This document shows, piece by piece, positions 29,200-37,172 of a DNA stretch of 64,000 bases (its first letter is position 1; every line of letters starts with the position of its first letter). The stretch lies in sequence record NC_028248.1. One strand, given 5' to 3'. Source of the DNA: Escherichia phage slur16. The translations under genes and the position numbers were made by a program. The notes below the pieces were generated by a model. The model did not search any database. It was not told the origin of the DNA and was given only the letters and a program-made list of their open reading frames with translations.

Positions 29200-29533
29200 C
29201 CATTCGAATTGTGTCGTTTATGTTCGGGCAAGGTCGCTAGTCTTGCCCCGCCATTTTCAGGCAGCTGCATGTCTCCATGCAGACCAGACTATATCTTATA
29301 AGCGACAACAACCGCTTATCCTCCCGTTTCGAATCGCTTGATTCTACGTCTTTCGACTAGTCGTTGAACGTTCATCCTCTCGGATGCTTCGCTGCGGATT
29401 ATCTAAATTAACACACTGTTACCATACCTTCGATCTCTCTTCGAAGCCTCTATCATGTTACCATGACAGGTTGGTGGTATTAATAGTAAAGATTTCCCCG
29501 CAATTAGGGAGGTTTTACGAGAGCTACAAATTA
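29200..29533 (-). ncRNA. Group I self-splicing intron (ORF-less) interrupting the terminase large subunit gene
   Basis: Minus-strand RNA contains the canonical group I core elements in order: P AAUUGCGGGGAAA (plus 29503-29516), Q AAUCCGCAGC (29391-29400), R GUUCAACGACUAGUCGAAAG (29350-29371), S AAGAUAUAGUCUGG (29284-29297). Exon 1 ends ...GAU GAG GGU immediately followed by an in-frame UAA; no ORF inside. Splice junctions estimated to within ~15 nt. Confidence 0.8.
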
Positions 29534-29959
29534 ACCCTCATCGAAGCAAACCATGGTGTACTCAAGCCCTTGATGGTTAAGCTTATCTTGTACATACTCC
29601 ATGTGGCAGTATTTTACAACAGCTCCCTTTTTGCTTCTATCCCACTTGCCAGTGTTCGGATCAAACCGTGGAAAAATGAACTTATGATCCTTCTCTCTGA
29701 ACTTTGGCTTAATGTTTTCAGGCAGATCACTATAAATAGCTACCGCTTTAGGCCATAGTCCACCCTCACCTTCCAACTGCGGGGTTGTTCTTCGGAACAT
29801 AACCACAGAGCTGTGGGGGTCATCAATAATTTTAAGTGGCATCAATTGCAAGAGGAACGACTTGCCAGACCCTGCGGCACCGCCGATTACCAAAATATCT
29901 GCATCGTTTTCGAGGATCATCTTCTGCTTTTCAGAACACGGTCCGTAAATCTTAGACAT
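29534..29959 (-). CDS. terL: Terminase large subunit, exon 1 (ATPase domain)
   Basis: Walker A GGAAGSGKS and Walker B MVCFDEG; the frame is closed by a UAA that is the first codon of the intron. Confidence 0.75.
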
Positions 29960-31062: not shown

Positions 31063-31139
31063 TGGTCTCCACGGAGTGATTCGAACACTCGACCTCCTGA
31101 TCCCAAATCAGGCGCTCTACCAAGCTGAGCTACGCGGAG
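31063..31139 (-). tRNA. tRNA-Pro (anticodon UGG)
   Basis: Folded by hand: acceptor CUCCGCG/CGUGGAG with C1:G72, anticodon stem CCUGA/UCAGG, loop UUUGGGA with G37, T-loop UUCGAAU, encoded CCA. Confidence 0.85.
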
Positions 31140-31150
31140 TATTTATTATT

Positions 31151-31225
31151 TGGTGGCCCTGGGTGGAATTGAACCACCGTCTGGCGATTATGAGTCGCTT
31201 GCTTGAACCTTCCAGCTACAGGGCC
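31151..31225 (-). tRNA. tRNA-Met (anticodon CAU; elongator type, tRNA-Ile2 not excluded)
   Basis: Acceptor GGCCCUG/CAGGGCC, anticodon loop CUCAUAA, T-arm GGUGG-UUCAAUU-CCACC, encoded CCA; G1:C72 argues against initiator. Confidence 0.8.
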
Positions 31226-31226
31226 A

Positions 31227-31302
31227 TGGTGCTGATGGCAGGACTTGAACCTGCAACCTATTGATTACAAATCAATTGCACTACCAATTGTGCTACATCA
31301 GC
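31227..31302 (-). tRNA. tRNA-Thr (anticodon UGU)
   Basis: 76-nt cloverleaf: acceptor GCUGAUG/CAUCAGC, D-stem GCAC/GUGC, anticodon stem AUUGA/UCAAU with loop UUUGUAA, T-arm GCAGG-UUCAAGU-CCUGC, CCA. Confidence 0.85.
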
Positions 31303-31308
31303 AAAAAA

Positions 31309-31407
31309 GGTGCTAGGTGATGGAATCGAACCACCTATGTATTCAACGACTACCTCGTCTATTTTCAGGATTAAAAATCCTCGCCCTTGCCAAAGGGCTT
31401 ACCTAGC
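31309..31407 (-). tRNA. Aberrant tRNA-like element (99 nt; possible tRNA-Lys UUU derivative with ~26 extra nt)
   Basis: Perfect 7-bp acceptor pairing GCUAGGU/ACCUAGC, D-arm GCCC-UUUGGCAA-GGGC, T-arm GGUGG-UUCGAUU-CCAUC, 3' end ...ACC followed by UUUUUU (no encoded CCA). The anticodon position is a palindromic hairpin AGGAUU-UUU-AAUCCU (alternatively a 4-bp stem with UUUUUAA loop, anticodon UUU), and ~30 nt lie between it and the T-arm. Confidence 0.35.
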
Positions 31408-31505
31408 TCAGTATGTTGACCATGTTGCTAGTCGGCGATGACGACTGTAACATTTGATAATCCGGTTCTGCTTCCGGCTTTCGCTTAATTACAAGGTCAA
31501 CAATA

Positions 31506-31596
31506 TGGCTGAGGGTAATGGAATCGAACCATCATCGAGTCATCCTCAACGGGACGGTTTTCAAGACCGCTTGAGCACCATTGCTCCCTACCCTCA
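31506..31596 (-). tRNA. tRNA-Ser (anticodon UGA)
   Basis: Type II tRNA: acceptor UGAGGGU/ACCCUCA, anticodon arm GCGGU-CUUGAAA-ACCGU, long variable arm (UUGAG-GAUGA-CUCGA), T-arm GAUGG-UUCGAUU-CCAUU, CCA. Confidence 0.8.
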
Positions 31597-31710
31597 TTTA
31601 TAAACAATACTGATAATGACACTGATTTTCGAGCAGTTAGTGACTAGTATAAACGACGATAAATATCAATGCCATTATCTGTATGATTTATGCATTTAAA
31701 ACTATAAATT

Positions 31711-31797
31711 TGGTGGGGAGTGGTGGAGTCGAACCACCCGAGTCGTAATGACAATAGATTTACAGTCTACACCGCTACCTCTACGGGATAACTCCCC
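31711..31797 (-). tRNA. tRNA-Tyr (anticodon GUA)
   Basis: Acceptor GGGGAGU/ACUCCCC, anticodon arm GUAGA-CUGUAAA-UCUAU, long variable arm, T-arm GGUGG-UUCGACU-CCACC, CCA. Confidence 0.8.
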
Positions 31798-31801
31798 AAT
31801 T

Positions 31802-31876
31802 TGGCACCCCGTACTGGACTCGAACCAGTGTCAACGGCTTAGAAGGCCGCTGCTTTATCCACTAAGCTAACAGGGC
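31802..31876 (-). tRNA. tRNA-Arg (anticodon UCU)
   Basis: Acceptor GCCCUGU/ACGGGGU (G-U wobbles), D-stem GCUU/AAGC, anticodon arm GCGGC-CUUCUAA-GCCGU, T-arm CUGG-UUCGAGU-CCAG, CCA. Confidence 0.8.
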
Positions 31877-32978: not shown

Positions 32979-33188
32979 TCAACAGATTCCGGCCTTATCC
33001 CTCCTGTCTGCGTATTCTTTAATCGCAACCTCATCTGCATTGGTGACTAAATCTTCAAAGTAACTCTCAAGCTCCTCGTCAATGTCAGGAAACCAACTCT
33101 TTTTCCTGTCAGTGTGAATCGCAGACTTGTTGAATTTATTACAGTTCTTTGCTACCGGATTGTTCATTAATCGCCCCTCAGCGTTCAT
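32979..33188 (-). CDS. Hypothetical protein
   Basis: 69-aa ORF. Confidence 0.25.
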   Translation of the reverse strand: MNAEGRLMNNPVAKNCNKFNKSAIHTDRKKSWFPDIDEELESYFEDLVTNADEVAIKEYADRRDKAGIC

Positions 33189-33756
33189 AGTAAATCTTAT
33201 TTAACATTACCTCATCCTTTGCAGAAAGAATACCGAGATATGCATCACCGAACCTACCTGCAACAACCTCTACATGATACATAACTTCGTTAATATCGTC
33301 AAGAGTGATAACTGGATGACCGTACCTCTCTGAGTATTGTCTCAGAGTGCGATGTAGGGAATCATCATCGTAGGCAGACTTTTTAATATCACAAACACGA
33401 CGAATAGCCTTGATGTCGAAAAACCCTGTGCGATACCAACCAAGAAAAAGGTTTCGTACAGTGTCAACACCTACATCAACACCGTCAAGAACCTTATCTA
33501 CAAGATAGCTGTCATCCTTTGGACCTGCTTCCTTAGTTCGAATGTAGTTGCCATCTTTTCCTGGTGACAGCTCCTTCTCATCACCAACCTGAATGCCATC
33601 ATTTGGCGGTGTTAACCACTTATCCGGATGCTTACGATCACGAGCGTTAGAATGATTACGCTGGAAACCTGGCTTCCACTTGAAAGTTTTCTCCATCTGT
33701 TCTTCATTCTGATAACGTTTTGCAATCTTTTCACGGTCATCTTTGCGTGGACTCAT
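33178..33756 (-). CDS. Hypothetical protein
   Basis: 192-aa ORF, charged N-terminus; no recognizable motif. Confidence 0.35.
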   Translation of the reverse strand: MSPRKDDREKIAKRYQNEEQMEKTFKWKPGFQRNHSNARDRKHPDKWLTPPNDGIQVGDEKELSPGKDGNYIRTKEAGPKDDSYLVDKVLDGVDVGVDTVRNLFLGWYRTGFFDIKAIRRVCDIKKSAYDDDSLHRTLRQYSERYGHPVITLDDINEVMYHVEVVAGRFGDAYLGILSAKDEVMLNKIYYER

Positions 33757-34262
33757 AGCTGCCTCCTCTTCAAGTTATAGAAAAACTCACTGTATCGCTT
33801 TGTAACGAGCTTTTCTATCAAACTGGTGCGATTGCCTTACCTGGTATAGTTTATATAGCTGTGGAGCGATTTAGGGGCCTTCTTGTCCGTTTCCACACAT
33901 AAACTTCATCCAAGCTCGCGCGGGAGACTCTCAACCGACTCCTTACGGCGCTGGCAAGCTTTCGTCGGTGGTCCACATCAGTGCTCGGCCTTTGGCCTGC
34001 GCTATCGCTTCGCTCCCACACATGTTAACAGACCTTCATGTATGCACTTCTGTTATTGTGTGCACCAAGGAGGCCCGGCATCTCGCCCCTCGTAGGCGAG
34101 TGCCAATGAAGGGCCGACACTACCTATAGTAAGTAATAAATTTAAAACATGGTACTTAGGATCTAGTATATTCTACATAAGTTAAGTATATGTATTTAGT
34201 ACCATAAGTACTAGATCTTTTATTTTTTTTATTATTTAGTTATTTTAGTTATATTCTTTATG

Positions 34263-34343
34263 TGTCCGTATCACGGACAGTTAGTGTCCGTATTACGGAC
34301 AGATGTGTCCGCGTGACGGACAGTAGTGTCCGTATCACGGACA
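34263..34343. repeat. Four tandem, phased 17-bp palindromic sites (TGTCCG-N5-CGGACA) - operator/iteron array
   Basis: tgtccgtatcacggaca (34263-34279), tgtccgtattacggaca (34285-34301), tgtccgcgtgacggaca (34306-34322), tgtccgtatcacggaca (34327-34343); centre-to-centre spacing 21-22 bp; flanked by an AT-rich tract at 34140-34260. Confidence 0.7.
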
Positions 34344-34418
34344 GTTACTAACCTCTGTTCCAGAGTGAACATAAAACATACGAATCCTTATAGTACAGAT
34401 ATTTAAGTTTTTACTGGT

Positions 34419-34769
34419 CTAACCAGTTGTTGACATTCGAATAACTTCTTCTGGTGGCAAAACTTTGGAAAATGTGCATCTTTTACCTCTCCCTTGTGTG
34501 GATATTTCAACCACTCCTGCACATTCTAAAGTTTTAACGCACGCTGCTGCTTTTGTTTTCTTTATCCCAATATCTGCTGCAATTTTCCTTGTGCTGGGCG
34601 TGAAGCGTGAATTTCCTCCAAGCTTATACCAGTTGTGCAGGTAGCAGTATACGATCTTGTCATATAAGTCAAGAACAACAACCTCACCAGTTGTGTCATT
34701 CAAAACTTTTGACATAGACAGTATTTCAAGGGGGACTTTAAGATATAGCAGCTTATCCCCATCTTTCAT
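34419..34769 (-). CDS. Hypothetical protein, possible HTH DNA-binding protein
   Basis: 116-aa ORF; segment STRKIAADIGIKKTKAAACVKTLECAGVVEI resembles a helix-turn-helix; lies ~75 bp from the palindromic repeat array. Confidence 0.3.
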   Translation of the reverse strand: MKDGDKLLYLKVPLEILSMSKVLNDTTGEVVVLDLYDKIVYCYLHNWYKLGGNSRFTPSTRKIAADIGIKKTKAAACVKTLECAGVVEISTQGRGKRCTFSKVLPPEEVIRMSTTG

Positions 34770-34816
34770 ATCTCCTGATTCTCCTTGTGTGGCAATTTTC
34801 TTTAAAATAGCAGGGA

Positions 34817-35371
34817 TTACTCCACGCTGTCAATAGCAAGACTCATTGCAATACGGTATGCCTCTTCTAATGGTAAGAGTCTCCCCCACACATCCCAACC
34901 GACATCAAACTGCCTGCCAAACAACTGCTGTGTGGTTCCGTGAGCATGACCGAACAGTTGGACCGATCCGTGAGGCTTTCTGTTCCACTTTGCAAACTGG
35001 TAATGGCTCATACAGATCAAATTCTTGTTGTGGCGAAGCTCGTAATAATCTACAACCTCATGACCGAACTCTTTCATAATTCTGACAGTCGTCCTTGTGT
35101 CATGGTTACCACGAACAAGAATAATATGTCCGTTCAACATATTTAGAACATCTGGGAGCAATTTGTTAATATTCTTATCATTAGTGCACGCAATATCTCC
35201 TAAGTGAAACACAGTGTCTGCAGGTGACACAACAGAGTTCCACTTGGTGATGATCCCCGCATTCATACTGTCAAGATTGTGATCATACTGAGATCTGTGT
35301 TTTTGACATGAGTCAAACTCCATGACCCGCTGGTGGAGAAAGTGTGTGTCGCTTGTTACAAAGTATTTCAT
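34817..35371 (-). CDS. Calcineurin-like metallophosphoesterase (putative polynucleotide 2',3'/3' phosphatase)
   Basis: Start trimmed to MKYFVTSDTHF; metallophosphoesterase motifs DTHF, HLGDI, VRGNHD, GHAH. Confidence 0.65.
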   Translation of the reverse strand: MKYFVTSDTHFLHQRVMEFDSCQKHRSQYDHNLDSMNAGIITKWNSVVSPADTVFHLGDIACTNDKNINKLLPDVLNMLNGHIILVRGNHDTRTTVRIMKEFGHEVVDYYELRHNKNLICMSHYQFAKWNRKPHGSVQLFGHAHGTTQQLFGRQFDVGWDVWGRLLPLEEAYRIAMSLAIDSVE

Positions 35372-35378
35372 ACATTCC

Positions 35379-35789
35379 TCATTTAAGTTTAATGCAGTTT
35401 TTAAGCTGGCGTTCCATACGATCCACAACCCTGTCTGGAACATCATGAATGCTTTTACTACCATGGCGGTTTTCAACCACGATTACGGTATAACTATACC
35501 TATGACTGATCGCCATGTCAATATATTCTTGCACATATTTTTCTTTTGTAAATGTATTACTTACCACGATACGGTCGTATCCCATACGCATCATATCTTC
35601 TACGTTATCTTTGCACCATTTTGCTGCAAGTGTTACTTTACTTGCATCCCAGTTGTAATTTCCATCATCGTCGTACCAGAACATGTCGTTCTCAAAATGT
35701 GGATACAGACCTTCTAAAGATAGCGCACTTGCCAGTGTTGATTTGCCAGACCCTGGTAGACCACGCACGATATATAGCATTTTAGACAT
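35379..35789 (-). CDS. P-loop polynucleotide 5'-kinase-like protein (T4 Pnk kinase-domain-like)
   Basis: Start at MSKMLYIVRG preceded by GGAGG RBS; Walker A GLPGSGKST, downstream VVSNTF, resembling the T4 Pnk kinase domain layout. Confidence 0.55.
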   Translation of the reverse strand: MSKMLYIVRGLPGSGKSTLASALSLEGLYPHFENDMFWYDDDGNYNWDASKVTLAAKWCKDNVEDMMRMGYDRIVVSNTFTKEKYVQEYIDMAISHRYSYTVIVVENRHGSKSIHDVPDRVVDRMERQLKNCIKLK

Positions 35790-35889
35790 AGTAATCCTCC
35801 GTTTTAATTTCAACGATAGTATACCTAACTGTTTTGTTAATTTCAAGTGTTGACACTAGGTTATTTGTGTGGCAGGATAGACTGACAAA

Positions 35890-36825
35890 ATGACAAATGA
35901 GGAACGTATGATGAAGTATTTTAATGCAGACGACCTAGTTGACAAAGGTCTTGTAACCAGCAGATATCACCCAGACCTTGGGTTAAAGATCTATAAATAT
36001 GCCAGAAAAGTATTCTACAACAACTTATGGCATTTGTCTCCTCGATTACTGGAGTGCCGAGGCATTGTTGTCGGTAATGAAGGAAATGTTGTGGCATGGC
36101 CCTTTACAAAAGTGTTTAACTTGGGAGAAAACTCCACCAACCTGCCTGACAATAAGCTTGTGACGGCGGTAGAGAAAAAGAACGGATTCCTTGGTGTGGT
36201 GTCATCTCATAAAGGTGAACTATTGTTCTCAACAACCGGGTCTCTTGATTCTCCATATTGTAACCTTGCAAAGGAAACCATCCAGGAGCAATGTGGTAAT
36301 TTAGATCTTATCAAGAAGGTTATGGGCAATGAAAATATGACATTCATGTTTGAAATTTGTCACCCCTCAGATCCGCATATTGTTCAGGAAGATCATGGCG
36401 CATATTTGATAGGTTGCAGATATAATGATTCTGGAATAATGCTACCAGAAGCAGCTTTAGATGGGATTGCCAAATACCTTGGTGCAAAACGTCCTCACAC
36501 TGTGCGTGAAATTCCGTTCAGTTATGCAAAAGAATTAGCTGCAGAAACAAGAGGTGAAGGGTATATGATTCGTAAGCCTTACTACCCTTATGATCTGCAG
36601 CTGAAGATTAAGTCTCCATACTATCTGGCACGGAAGGCCGTAATGAGGGGTAAAGCTTGGAAGATTTGGGATGATGATATCTTTAAACGTGTTGACGAAG
36701 AGTTTTACGGCATGGTAAACTTCATTCGTAACAACTACACAGAGGATGTATGGAACTGCCTCCTGGAGCAGGAACGCCGTGAGATACTCGATTACTATTT
36801 CCACAACGAGAACTATATGCAATGA
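35890..36825 (+). CDS. ATP-dependent RNA ligase-like nucleotidyltransferase (putative Rnl)
   Basis: Ligase motif I KxNG (VEKKNGF), motif III-like FMFEI, motif IV EGYMIRK, motif V LKIKSP; 311 aa without a DNA-ligase OB domain; a separate DNA ligase exists at 39297. Start may be the downstream ATG pair with GAGGA RBS. Confidence 0.5.
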   Translation: MTNEERMMKYFNADDLVDKGLVTSRYHPDLGLKIYKYARKVFYNNLWHLSPRLLECRGIVVGNEGNVVAWPFTKVFNLGENSTNLPDNKLVTAVEKKNGFLGVVSSHKGELLFSTTGSLDSPYCNLAKETIQEQCGNLDLIKKVMGNENMTFMFEICHPSDPHIVQEDHGAYLIGCRYNDSGIMLPEAALDGIAKYLGAKRPHTVREIPFSYAKELAAETRGEGYMIRKPYYPYDLQLKIKSPYYLARKAVMRGKAWKIWDDDIFKRVDEEFYGMVNFIRNNYTEDVWNCLLEQERREILDYYFHNENYMQ

Positions 36826-37172
36826 AGAAGTTGATTGTGTGGCTAGATGACTTGAGAGATCCGTCAAAGTACGGGCTCCAAGACGCTGTTTGGCTAAAGA
36901 ATTCCTCCGAGTTTATAGATTTTATTAACGATAATAGAAAGCTCTACAGACGCGTTTCTGAGTGGCATATGGACAACGACCTTGGAGAGGTATTCGAAGG
37001 GTACGATTGCCTATCTATGTTGGAGGAAAAATTTGTATTTGGTAAGCCTCCTGTAGTTGACAACGTGAAGATTTTCGTGCATACTTCTAACCCATCAGCG
37101 GCTCGTAAATTCATGCTTGCAGCTGACTCGTTTAAAAAGTTTGGAATAGAGATTAAACAAAACATCTACTGA
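36822..37172 (+). CDS. Hypothetical protein
   Basis: 116-aa ORF with 4-nt overlap to the upstream gene. Confidence 0.3.
   Translation: MKKLIVWLDDLRDPSKYGLQDAVWLKNSSEFIDFINDNRKLYRRVSEWHMDNDLGEVFEGYDCLSMLEEKFVFGKPPVVDNVKIFVHTSNPSAARKFMLAADSFKKFGIEIKQNIY

What the first reader, a model, noticed from the sequence alone, without database searches (positions are those of the whole stretch)
33860..34135. Second GC-rich non-coding island upstream of the palindrome array
About 270 bp of GC-rich sequence (for example ggcgctggcaagctttcgtcggtggtcc and ggaggcccggcatctcgcccctcgtaggcgag) with no co-oriented ORF; the only ORF (33883-34095, plus strand) is low-complexity and runs against local gene orientation. 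It could be a small RNA, a horizontally acquired fragment, or part of the origin/regulatory region.
Basis: seen in the sequence. Interest (0 to 1): 0.45.

Follow-up and report, generated by a model that had tools for sequence, protein, structure and literature searches.

The report
Structured non-coding cassette beside phage origin
The GC-rich stretch is a real, non-coding, base-pairing-constrained element of rV5-like coliphages that sits just after an origin-like repeat array, and parts of it recur in the same position in a family of 13-14 kb E. coli plasmids carrying rV5-like tail genes, which hints at an undescribed link between a virulent phage and plasmid-borne satellites.

Summary
The window is a Vequintavirus (rV5-like; 100% identical to phage slur12 over the region queried). 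The island (about 34130-33830, read on the minus strand) reaches 55-59% GC against 43.6% background.

It is not protein-coding. No family matches any ORF. Substitutions in the one co-oriented ORF (rV5 'ORF78') show no codon-phase bias. The plus-strand ORFs are broken by indels in relatives.

It matches no Rfam family but is under selection for base pairing. Two helices carry five fully compensatory pair changes and one terminal mismatch between phages and distant copies.

The distant copies are informative. A divergent rV5-like lineage keeps the island although the neighbouring initiator-like gene, repeats and AT-rich tract are replaced. A family of 13-14 kb E. coli plasmids (major capsid, tape measure and baseplate/neck genes closest to rV5-like phages) carries a homologous hairpin array punctuated by TGTGTGG(G) motifs, between its iterons and its rep operon. 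Five of 26 plasmid versions share the phage-type helix.

My best reading is a strand-specific cis element of the replication-origin module, the constant partner of exchangeable initiator/iteron sets. Whether it acts as RNA or as unwound single-stranded DNA is unresolved. Function is inferred, not shown.

The parts
34072..34115 (-). Hairpin A: GGCCC/GGGCC outer stem, GGCA/UGCC and CUCGCC(U)/(G)GGCGAG inner stems with a bulged A. Its 5' flank is GTGTC (GGGTC in the divergent lineage).
   Evidence: Invariant in the Vequintavirus copies aligned. All 16 pairs are paired in 11 distinct sequences. Two pairs (G-C to U-A) change on both sides in plasmid NZ_CP020521. Homology with the divergent phage lineage and with that plasmid begins here.
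34023..34071 (-). Variable linker, including an 18-nt indel (34059-34042) that is missing in rV5, Pr121LW, A147 and MaxTheCat.
   Evidence: Alignments. The stem predicted here in the window sequence (UAACAGA/UCUGUUA) is deleted in those phages, so it is not conserved.
34013..34022 (-). TGTGTGGGAG motif. It is the first of the TGTGTGG(G) punctuation motifs and can pair with CTCCCGCGCG (33926-33917) through three G-U pairs.
   Evidence: Motif positions. Pairing is predicted by RNAalifold and by minimum-free-energy folding. No covariation supports this helix.
33979..34012 (-). Small hairpins (GCGAAGC, GCGAUAGCGC, GGCC-AAA-GGCC). In the plasmids this segment is replaced by other hairpin modules.
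33970..33978 (-). Conserved ATGTGGACC, predicted single-stranded. AATGTGGAG...GGACC is kept even in plasmids that lack stem B.
33934..33969 (-). Stem B (ACCGAC/GUCGGU, 33969-33964 with 33939-33934) enclosing a near-invariant 24-nt loop, GAAAGCUUGCCAGCGCCGKAAGGA. The apical CC-GNRA-GG is GUAA or GGAA (33946-33943).
   Evidence: Three of six pairs change on both sides between phages and five plasmids, and G-U intermediates are seen. 99.4% of cells are paired, 0 of 500 shuffles reach the observed score, and slid controls give 14-54% paired. The covariance model scores 94-104 bits on full copies.
33917..33933 (-). UGAGAGU followed by CUCCCGCGCG. GAGTCTCCCGCGCG is shared with many plasmid versions.
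33830..33916 (-). More variable 3' domain, with the second TGTGTGG (33899-33893), CCCCTAAAT (33877-33869) and TAAGGCAA. These motifs recur in the plasmids and in the divergent lineage.
34136..34259 (-). Context: AT-rich tract (21-31% GC) with two GATC sites and inverted repeats. It is the most conserved part of the locus.
   Evidence: Nucleotide diversity is 0.018 here. It is 0.075 in the island and 0.08-0.11 at third codon positions of the flanking genes. Composition.
34263..34343 (.). Context: four 17-bp palindromes, TGTCCGTnnnACGGACA, at 21-22 bp spacing. They could be iterons or operators.
   Evidence: 4 matches against 0.06 expected.
34419..34769 (-). Context: a 116-aa winged-helix protein. 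It could be an initiator-like DNA-binding protein or a repressor.
   Evidence: PHROG 12838 'replication initiation protein' (E = 3e-80) and Pfam HTH_36 / DUF6945. Weak matches to both CodY repressors and RepA N-terminal domains in the PDB.
33178..33756 (-). Context: a 192-aa protein of unknown function that is co-inherited with the island in the divergent phage lineage. The conserved leader hairpin at 33818-33777 precedes it.
   Evidence: PHROG 12226, function unknown. Conserved with the island in L024 and L255. A 51%-identical homologue in an unrelated phage contig has no such element.

Best explanation
The island is the phage version of a modular, strand-specific hairpin-array cassette that accompanies iteron-type replication-origin modules in rV5-like phages and in a family of 13-14 kb E. 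coli plasmids with rV5-like tail genes.

On the minus strand the order is: initiator-like winged-helix gene, four palindromic repeats, a highly conserved AT-rich tract, then the cassette. The cassette consists of hairpin A, a variable linker, a multi-hairpin core with stem B, TGTGTGG(G) and CCCGCGCG motifs, and a 3' domain.

I infer that it works in cis and in single-stranded form. Once the repeats and AT-rich tract are opened, or transcribed through from the early promoter upstream of the 116-aa gene, the minus-strand nucleic acid folds into these hairpins. The folded element then serves as the constant part of the origin, where priming or replisome loading starts. The initiator and repeat sets are exchangeable.

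What is shown: it is non-coding, it is conserved, it has compensatory base-pair changes, it has cassette-like boundaries, and it has the same position and orientation relative to unrelated repeat arrays in the three kinds of context examined.

What is inferred: that the repeats and AT-rich tract are an origin, that the element acts there, and which nucleic acid is active. My split is about 50% RNA and 35% single-stranded DNA.
For: Non-coding:
- No Pfam or PHROG family matches any ORF in the island.
- Variable sites in ORF78 fall 16/22/17 across the three codon phases. The flanking genes show 3- to 8-fold more diversity at third codon positions.
- 1-nt indels in MaxTheCat and ECML-10 break both plus-strand ORFs.

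Conserved:
- It is present in all 117 Vequintavirus records at 89-100% identity.

Structure:
- Stem B has three pairs changed on both sides plus G-U intermediates, with 99.4% of cells paired and 0 of 500 shuffles reaching the score.
- Hairpin A has two pairs changed on both sides and is 100% paired.
- The apical tetraloop varies GUAA/GGAA, so it stays GNRA.

Cassette behaviour:
- In L024 and L255 the initiator gene (143 aa), the repeats and the AT-rich tract are all different, yet homology resumes exactly at hairpin A.

Origin association:
- In the plasmids the homologous array lies between at least four different iteron types and the rep operon, in the same orientation.
- The plasmid Rep proteins and the phage 116-aa protein both hit Pfam HTH_36.
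- The cumulative GC-skew minimum lies at about 35-36 kb.

Transcription:
- There is no strong sigma-70 promoter between the two genes. rV5 early promoters carry a perfect TTGACA, so the island would be transcribed by read-through.
Against: - No origin has been mapped in any rV5-like phage. The rV5 paper ties the skew shifts to changes in transcription direction.
- The palindromes and the 116-aa protein could equally be an operator/repressor pair.
- The recombination boundary in the divergent lineage falls between the AT-rich tract and the cassette. The two are therefore separable, which fits an independent RNA gene or leader as well as an origin part.
- Stem B and hairpin A are absent from 21 of the 26 plasmid versions examined. 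The best-supported helices are therefore not universal in the wider family.
- Folding energy of the 121-nt core is ordinary (z = -0.6).
- The long GU-rich closing helix has no covariation support.
- No DnaA boxes occur nearby.
Confidence: 0.4

Rival explanations
1. It is a stand-alone or processed structured RNA, or a long structured intercistronic leader, that acts as RNA. It might regulate the downstream 192-aa gene, titrate a protein through its repeated UGUGUGG(G) motifs in the way CsrB does, or mediate helper-satellite cross-talk in the way P4 CI RNA and P1 C4 RNA do through repeated complementary sites.
For: - It is co-oriented with transcription in every context, and in the phage it would be transcribed by read-through from the promoter upstream of the 116-aa gene.
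- The GNRA loop is maintained through a T/G polymorphism, and there are G-U intermediates in stem B and a bulged-A helix.
- UGUGUGGG can pair with CCCGCGCG (via G-U pairs) or with CCCACA, which allows alternative structures.
- It is co-inherited with the 192-aa gene in the divergent lineage.
- A related group of phages is known to carry a functional non-coding RNA, the pseudo-ToxI of phage TE (PMC3475682, found).
- It is GC-rich like the tRNA genes of the same genome.
Against: - No Rfam match, including the C4/CI family, even at E = 10.
- No promoter or terminator of its own.
- In the plasmids, strong sigma-70 promoters for the downstream operon lie after the element, so it is not that operon's leader.
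- Stems are almost purely Watson-Crick and 3-nt loops are enriched (13 against 3.1 expected). This is more typical of DNA hairpins than of RNA.
- A 51%-identical homologue of the 192-aa protein occurs without the element.
Confidence: 0.3
2. It is the packaging recognition (pac) site of the headful-packaging rV5-like phages, copied by the plasmids so that the helper terminase packages them.
For: - The genomes are circularly permuted, which implies headful packaging.
- The plasmids encode a capsid protein and tail parts, but no terminase or portal was recognised among the proteins searched.
- Apart from a 36-nt stretch in the tape-measure gene, the island is the only nucleotide-level similarity found between the plasmids and any phage record.
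Against: - Compensatory changes that preserve hairpins are not expected for a double-stranded terminase-binding site.
- Most plasmids of the family lack the phage-type blocks.
- The island is far from the structural and terminase genes, whereas pac sites usually lie in or near the small-terminase gene (established knowledge).
- Small unknown or helix-turn-helix proteins on the plasmids could be their own small terminase.
Confidence: 0.07
3. It encodes a small protein: rV5 ORF78 (56 aa, 34021-33851, minus strand) or one of the plus-strand ORFs.
For: The ORF78 frame is open in all 18 close relatives examined, and an ORF in the same frame is open in L024 and in plasmid L018. Several GenBank records annotate it.
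Against: - Variable sites fall 16/22/17 over the codon phases, so nearly every change is non-synonymous.
- The start is GTG with no ribosome-binding site, and starts and stops differ between lineages.
- No family matches.
- The compensatory changes in stem B alter the peptide.
- The plus-strand ORFs are broken by 1-nt indels.
Confidence: 0.03
4. It is a neutral relic of horizontally acquired DNA with no present function.
For: Overall diversity in the island (0.075) is close to that of third codon positions, and it tolerates an 18-nt deletion.
Against: Diversity is concentrated in the linker and the 3' domain, while hairpin A and stem B are almost invariant. Every change in those stems except one terminal mismatch is compensatory or keeps the pair. 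The element is retained across module swaps and in plasmids.
Confidence: 0.05

Closest known systems
Single-strand initiation signals next to iteron origins (ssiA/ssiB of RSF1010 oriV; G4-type and phiX174-type priming signals of plasmids; the G-site of plasmid R1)
   Same: These are non-coding, orientation-dependent hairpin elements placed beside iterons and an AT-rich region. They act on one unwound strand. They form a constant part that can be combined with different initiator/iteron sets. This comparison rests on established knowledge and on the layout seen.
   Different: The element is much longer (about 300 nt, against 40-140 nt) and consists of several modules punctuated by TGTGTGG(G). 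No sequence similarity to those signals was tested or is known. No priming has been shown. Some features (a GNRA loop, a possible helix rich in G-U pairs) look more like RNA.
ColE1 RNA II and the T4 oriF/oriG R-loop primers (origin transcripts that become primers)
   Same: In both cases a structured transcript made through or next to an origin is needed in cis for initiation. The island would be transcribed through the origin-like region.
   Different: ColE1 has no initiator or iterons and has a dedicated promoter and an antisense RNA I. None of these was found here. In T4 the unwinding element lies downstream of the promoter, whereas here the AT-rich tract comes before the structured part.
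P4 CI RNA and P1/P7 C4 RNA (immunity RNAs of a satellite and of phage-plasmids)
   Same: Both are non-coding RNAs of a satellite or phage-plasmid that work through short complementary sequences repeated along the same transcript. Here UGUGUGGG could pair with CCCACA or CCCGCGCG.
   Different: There is no match to the Rfam C4 family, no tRNA-like fold, and the complementary motifs are only 6-8 nt. A copy in a virulent helper phage has no counterpart in P2.
Pseudo-ToxI of the rV5-related phage TE (PMC3475682)
   Same: It is a non-coding RNA locus in a phage of the same wider group, which shows that such phages carry functional RNAs.
   Different: ToxI-type antitoxins are tandem, nearly identical 34-36-nt repeats next to a toxin gene. 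The island's only internal direct repeat is a 13-nt pair, and no toxin gene is nearby.

Membership tests
Any Rfam 15 family (including C4/CI RNA, ribozymes, riboswitches, tmRNA, RNase P, SRP, 6S, ToxI) | Covariance-model score at or above the family's gathering threshold | tested here: not met
   The whole window at gathering thresholds gives only the group I intron and the tRNAs. The region 33700-34450 at E up to 10 gives only weak matches; the best is rli43 at 21.9 bits against a gathering score of 100, and it mostly covers the AT-rich tract. Plasmid L018 gives no match at E up to 0.1.
Protein-coding gene (rV5 ORF78 or the plus-strand ORFs) | An excess of substitutions at third codon positions and an intact frame across relatives | tested here: not met
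   Variable sites by codon phase are 16/22/17. The plus-strand ORFs carry 1-nt indels in two phages. No Pfam or PHROG match.
Structured nucleic-acid element (generic) | Base pairs maintained by changes on both sides in independent sequences | tested here: met
   Stem B has 3 pairs and hairpin A has 2 pairs changed on both sides. 99-100% of cells are paired, against 14-54% in slid controls. Caveat: all five double changes separate only two lineages (phages versus plasmids), so they represent few independent events.
Single-strand initiation (priming) signal of an origin | Hairpins on one strand, adjacent to iterons and an AT-rich region, in a fixed orientation | tested here: met
   The order and orientation relative to unrelated repeat arrays are the same in the rV5 type, the L024/L255 type and the plasmids.
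Single-strand initiation (priming) signal of an origin | Primer synthesis by primase or RNA polymerase on the single-stranded element, and a requirement for replication | not testable with these tools
   This needs in vitro priming assays and origin or minimal-replicon mapping.
ColE1-type primer RNA | A dedicated promoter upstream, an antisense regulator RNA and no initiator protein | tested here: not met
   No sigma-70-like promoter of the phage's early type occurs between the genes, and an initiator-like protein and repeats are present.
Type III toxin-antitoxin RNA (ToxI-like or pseudo-ToxI) | Tandem near-identical repeats of about 34-45 nt next to a toxin gene | tested here: not met
   The only direct repeat inside the island is a 13-nt pair 123 nt apart. 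The neighbouring genes are a winged-helix protein and a protein of unknown function.
Phage pac site | The position of the first terminase cut, and binding of the small terminase | not testable with these tools
   The only available information is that the genomes are circularly permuted.

The most novel reading that the evidence does not exclude
The 13-14 kb E. coli plasmids are plasmid-borne satellites of virulent rV5-like myoviruses. The hairpin-array cassette they share in part with the phage is the cis element through which they plug into the helper's replication or packaging machinery. The phage island would then be one half of a previously unseen helper-satellite interface, and possibly a new class of origin-associated structured RNA or single-stranded DNA signal.
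Probability: 0.25. Interest if true: 0.8.

Novelty: new variant of a known kind. Interest (0 to 1): 0.6.

Why it matters
rV5-like phages are widely isolated and are used against E. coli O157, yet their origin of replication and their non-coding functions are unknown. This element gives a concrete, mutable candidate for the constant part of that origin, or for a phage non-coding RNA.

The element also led to a sizeable family of small plasmids that encode a capsid protein and rV5-like tail parts. A 2025 review I read cites only one phage satellite shown to be a plasmid, a satellite of an inovirus. If these plasmids are satellites of a virulent coliphage, the shared cassette offers a direct handle on how they exploit the helper.

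Tried and rejected
- Rfam searches at gathering and permissive thresholds on the window, the island and a plasmid found no family.
- Flanking-protein searches in IMG/VR found nothing for the 116-aa protein. tblastn of both flanking proteins against phage records found only Vequintavirus.
- Collection scans gave little. The 14-mer GTGTCGGCCCTTCA in IMG/VR gave only chance hits. The 18-mer in 185,579 species genomes gave 95 stretches, and none of those held and re-checked by blastn carried the element. The gapped pattern in metagenomes gave only rV5-like contigs.
- The covariance model of the stem B block found no further copy in the window. It also found none in 10-kb regions of Seunavirus, Mydovirus and Phapecoctavirus phages chosen by the phosphoesterase gene, where synteny differs.
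- The long-range helix closing the whole 300 nt in the single-sequence fold is rejected, because the TTGG-to-TAGA and GG-to-AG changes are not compensatory.
- The hairpin in the linker is rejected because it is deleted in several phages.
- The closing helix UGUGUGGGAG/CUCCCGCGCG is thermodynamically possible in most copies, but plasmid variants give no clean covariation.
- A hammerhead-like CUGAUG...GAAA resemblance is rejected, because most phages have CUAAUG and Rfam gives no hit.
- The idea that the TGTGTGG motifs are DnaA boxes is rejected: there is no TGTGNAWAA site near the region.
- UUCG tetraloops in the plasmid modules turned out to be CCC-UUC-GGG triloops, and they occur in the inverted form CCC-GAA-GGG in other plasmids.
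- A functional link to the 192-aa protein is weakened by a homologue that lacks the element.
- Literature searches found no description of the element, of the origin, or of the plasmids as satellites.

Full report
**Identity of the window.** The region 33760-34400 is 100% identical to Escherichia phage slur12 and 90-100% identical to 117 Vequintavirus (rV5-like) records. The island alone (33840-34140) matches the same 117 records at 89-100%. It matches nothing else among 50,697 phage records apart from three short matches with E-values of 1 or more.

**Observation.** The island is real.
- 150-nt windows with at least 54% GC run from 33847 to 34137 and peak at 58.7%. The window mean is 43.6% and the sd is 4.2%.
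- Local genes run on the minus strand up to about 35.85 kb.
- On the minus strand the order is as follows:
  - a 116-aa winged-helix protein (34769-34419; PHROG 'replication initiation protein', Pfam HTH_36);
  - four 17-bp palindromes, TGTCCGTnnnACGGACA, at 21-22 bp spacing (34343-34263);
  - an AT-rich tract (34259-34136, down to 21% GC);
  - the GC-rich island (about 34130-33830);
  - a conserved leader hairpin;
  - a 192-aa protein of unknown function (33756-33178).
ORF 33851-34021 (minus strand, 56 aa) is rV5 'ORF 78'.

**Not coding.**
- None of the three ORFs in the island matches Pfam or PHROGs.
- Across 19 aligned phage sequences, variable columns in ORF78 fall 16/22/17 on codon positions 1/2/3. 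In the flanking genes, third positions carry 3- to 8-fold more diversity than first and second positions.
- Both plus-strand ORFs are hit by 1-nt indels in MaxTheCat and ECML-10.

**Conservation pattern.** In 16 diverse relatives the AT-rich tract is the most conserved part of the locus (diversity 0.018). The island as a whole is at 0.075. That diversity is concentrated in a linker (34071-34023, including an 18-nt indel) and in the 3' domain. Hairpin A and the stem B block are almost invariant.

**Distant copies.**
1. *A divergent rV5-like lineage* (IMG/VR and JGI contig of 137 kb = L024/L244; Logan contig L255).
   - It keeps the island and the 192-aa gene at about 83% identity.
   - It has a different upstream protein (143 aa), different repeats (ATACATATTTGCATCAGAT type) and a different AT-rich tract.
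   - Homology resumes exactly at hairpin A.
2. *Small circular E. coli plasmids of 13-14 kb.* blastn against complete E. coli genomes and against PLSDB finds roughly 85%-identical blocks in these plasmids. One 39.6-kb record holds three copies.
   - The plasmids encode a major capsid protein, a tape measure protein, a baseplate-like protein, a neck protein, helix-turn-helix proteins and an O-like Rep protein. No terminase or portal was recognised among the proteins searched.
   - Their tail proteins are closest to Vequintavirus (about 50% amino-acid identity), then to other Vequintavirinae.
   - Apart from 36 nt in the tape-measure gene, the island blocks are the only nucleotide similarity found between the plasmids and any phage record.
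   - The family is sizeable. A 49-aa ORF next to the element is indexed in more than 100 blocks of the collection, nearly all with contigs of 10-20 kb.

**Structure.**
- *Stem B* (window 33969-33964 with 33939-33934) reads ACCGAC/GUCGGU in phages and GCUGCC/GGCAGC in five plasmids. Three of six pairs change on both sides. G-U intermediates occur in Aya and in the divergent lineage, and there is one terminal mismatch. 99.4% of cells are paired, 0 of 500 shuffles reach the score, and slid controls give 14-54% paired.
- *Hairpin A* (34115-34072) has 16 pairs, all paired in 11 distinct sequences, with two G-C to U-A double changes in plasmid NZ_CP020521.
- The 24-nt loop of stem B is near-invariant (three of its 24 positions vary), and its apical tetraloop alternates GUAA/GGAA, so it stays GNRA.
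- Caveats:
  - The double changes separate only two lineages.
  - Folding energy of the core is ordinary (z = -0.6 minus strand, +0.6 plus strand). The full 301 nt gives z = -2.4 (minus) and -1.75 (plus).
  - The GU-rich closing helix UGUGUGGGAG/CUCCCGCGCG is predicted but not supported by covariation.
- No Rfam family matches.

**The wider family.**
- A sixth complete plasmid (CP134895) and 20 further plasmid loci lack stem B and hairpin A altogether.
- They keep an array with the following parts:
  - two to four TGTGTGG(G) motifs, mostly 51-58 nt apart, each followed by short Watson-Crick hairpins;
  - AATGTGGAG...GGACC;
  - GAGTCTCCCGCGCG or a variant of it;
  - CCYCTAAAT in about half of the loci.
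- In every plasmid the array lies between the iterons and the strong sigma-70 promoters of the rep operon, in the same orientation. There are at least four iteron types, each paired with a different Rep.
- The phage island is therefore the phage version of a modular array. Five of the 26 plasmid versions carry the phage-type modules.
- Hairpins with at least 5 Watson-Crick pairs and a 3-nt loop are enriched (13 against 3.1 expected), and G-U pairs are rare in local stems.
- These features, and the occurrence of one mini-palindrome in both orientations (CCC-UUC-GGG and CCC-GAA-GGG), look more like DNA hairpins. The bulged hairpin A and the GNRA-capped stem B look more like RNA. I could not settle which nucleic acid is active.

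**Mechanism.** The one constant neighbour of the cassette in the three kinds of context is an array of initiator-type repeats, and the orientation is always the same. The downstream genes differ.
- This is the layout of origins that combine specific iterons with a constant single-strand initiation signal, for example RSF1010 oriV with ssiA/ssiB and the G-site of plasmid R1 (established knowledge).
- The phage encodes its own T7-like primase-helicase (rV5 paper).
- No early-type promoter lies between the two genes. The island should therefore also be transcribed by read-through from the promoter upstream of the 116-aa gene. This leaves a primer, R-loop or regulatory RNA role open.
- I commit to a strand-specific cis element of the origin module, at confidence 0.4. 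The main rival is a trans- or cis-acting regulatory RNA (0.3). The pac-site, small-protein and relic readings are unlikely.
- Against the origin reading:
  - the origin is unmapped;
  - the 116-aa protein resembles repressors as much as RepA;
  - the module boundary separates the AT-rich tract from the cassette;
  - no DnaA boxes are nearby.

**Known or new.** I found no description of the element, of an rV5 origin, or of these plasmids as satellites in the searchable literature. A 2025 review cites only one phage satellite shown to be a plasmid, a satellite of an inovirus (PMC12282955). I class the island as a new variant of a known kind: an origin-associated structured element or phage non-coding RNA. 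The function is unresolved.

Noticed in passing
L018 (NZ_CP020521.1), L017, L248-L250, L256-L276: A family of 13-14 kb circular E. coli plasmids encodes a major capsid protein, a tape measure protein, baseplate-like and neck proteins closest to rV5-like phages (about 50% amino-acid identity), and an O-like Rep with variable iterons. No terminase or portal was recognised. A marker ORF is indexed in more than 100 blocks of the collection, nearly all with contigs of 10-20 kb. They look like plasmid-borne satellites of rV5-like phages and appear to be undescribed.
   Followed up: partly
It is about 346 bp of apparently non-coding DNA between two small genes near the tRNA cluster, at 58.7% GC. Its fold z-score is -2.3 and it has no Rfam match. 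Conservation and covariation were not examined.
   Followed up: partly
window 33893-36842: Eight of the window's 19 TGTGTGG motifs lie within 3.1 kb, on both strands, around the island and the divergent-transcription point (5 of 20,000 random placements reach this). Two share the longer context CTCC(C)TTGTGTGG. The meaning is unknown.
   Followed up: partly
window 34136-34259: The AT-rich tract is more conserved (diversity 0.018) than the flanking coding sequence. It contains two GATC sites and inverted repeats (CTAGTACTTAtGGTAC type). It is probably the functional heart of the locus, as an unwinding element, a promoter, or both.
   Followed up: partly
window 29265-29543, minus strand: A group I intron (Rfam RF00028, 84 bits).
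   Followed up: no
window 31063-31876, minus strand: A cluster of seven tRNA genes. One is 99 nt long and ARAGORN reads it with a 4-base anticodon (31309-31407). Relatives annotate it variously as tRNA-Lys or 'OTHER', so it may contain an intron.
   Followed up: no
CP057073.1 (PLSDB): A 137.6-kb record deposited as an E. coli plasmid (pooled cattle faecal samples). It matches the island at 99% identity over its full length, and its size is that of an rV5-like genome, so it may be a phage genome carried in or co-assembled with the host. Only the island was compared.
   Followed up: no
MG0656xx records (e.g. L004, L011): Eighteen 'UNVERIFIED Campylobacter phage' records fall within Vequintavirus (90-99% identical to this E. 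coli phage over the regions compared). This is probably a host mislabel or contamination.
   Followed up: no
L249 1655-1683 and 1746-1768, plus strand: In the plasmids, two terminator-like hairpins with T-runs on the opposite strand lie between the hairpin array and the iterons. They may stop antisense transcription from entering the origin.
   Followed up: no
window 33777-33818, minus strand: A 12-bp hairpin (AUAGAAAAGCUC...GAGUUUUUCUAU) lies just upstream of the ribosome-binding site of the 192-aa gene. It is conserved even in the divergent lineage and may be a translational or processing signal.
   Followed up: no
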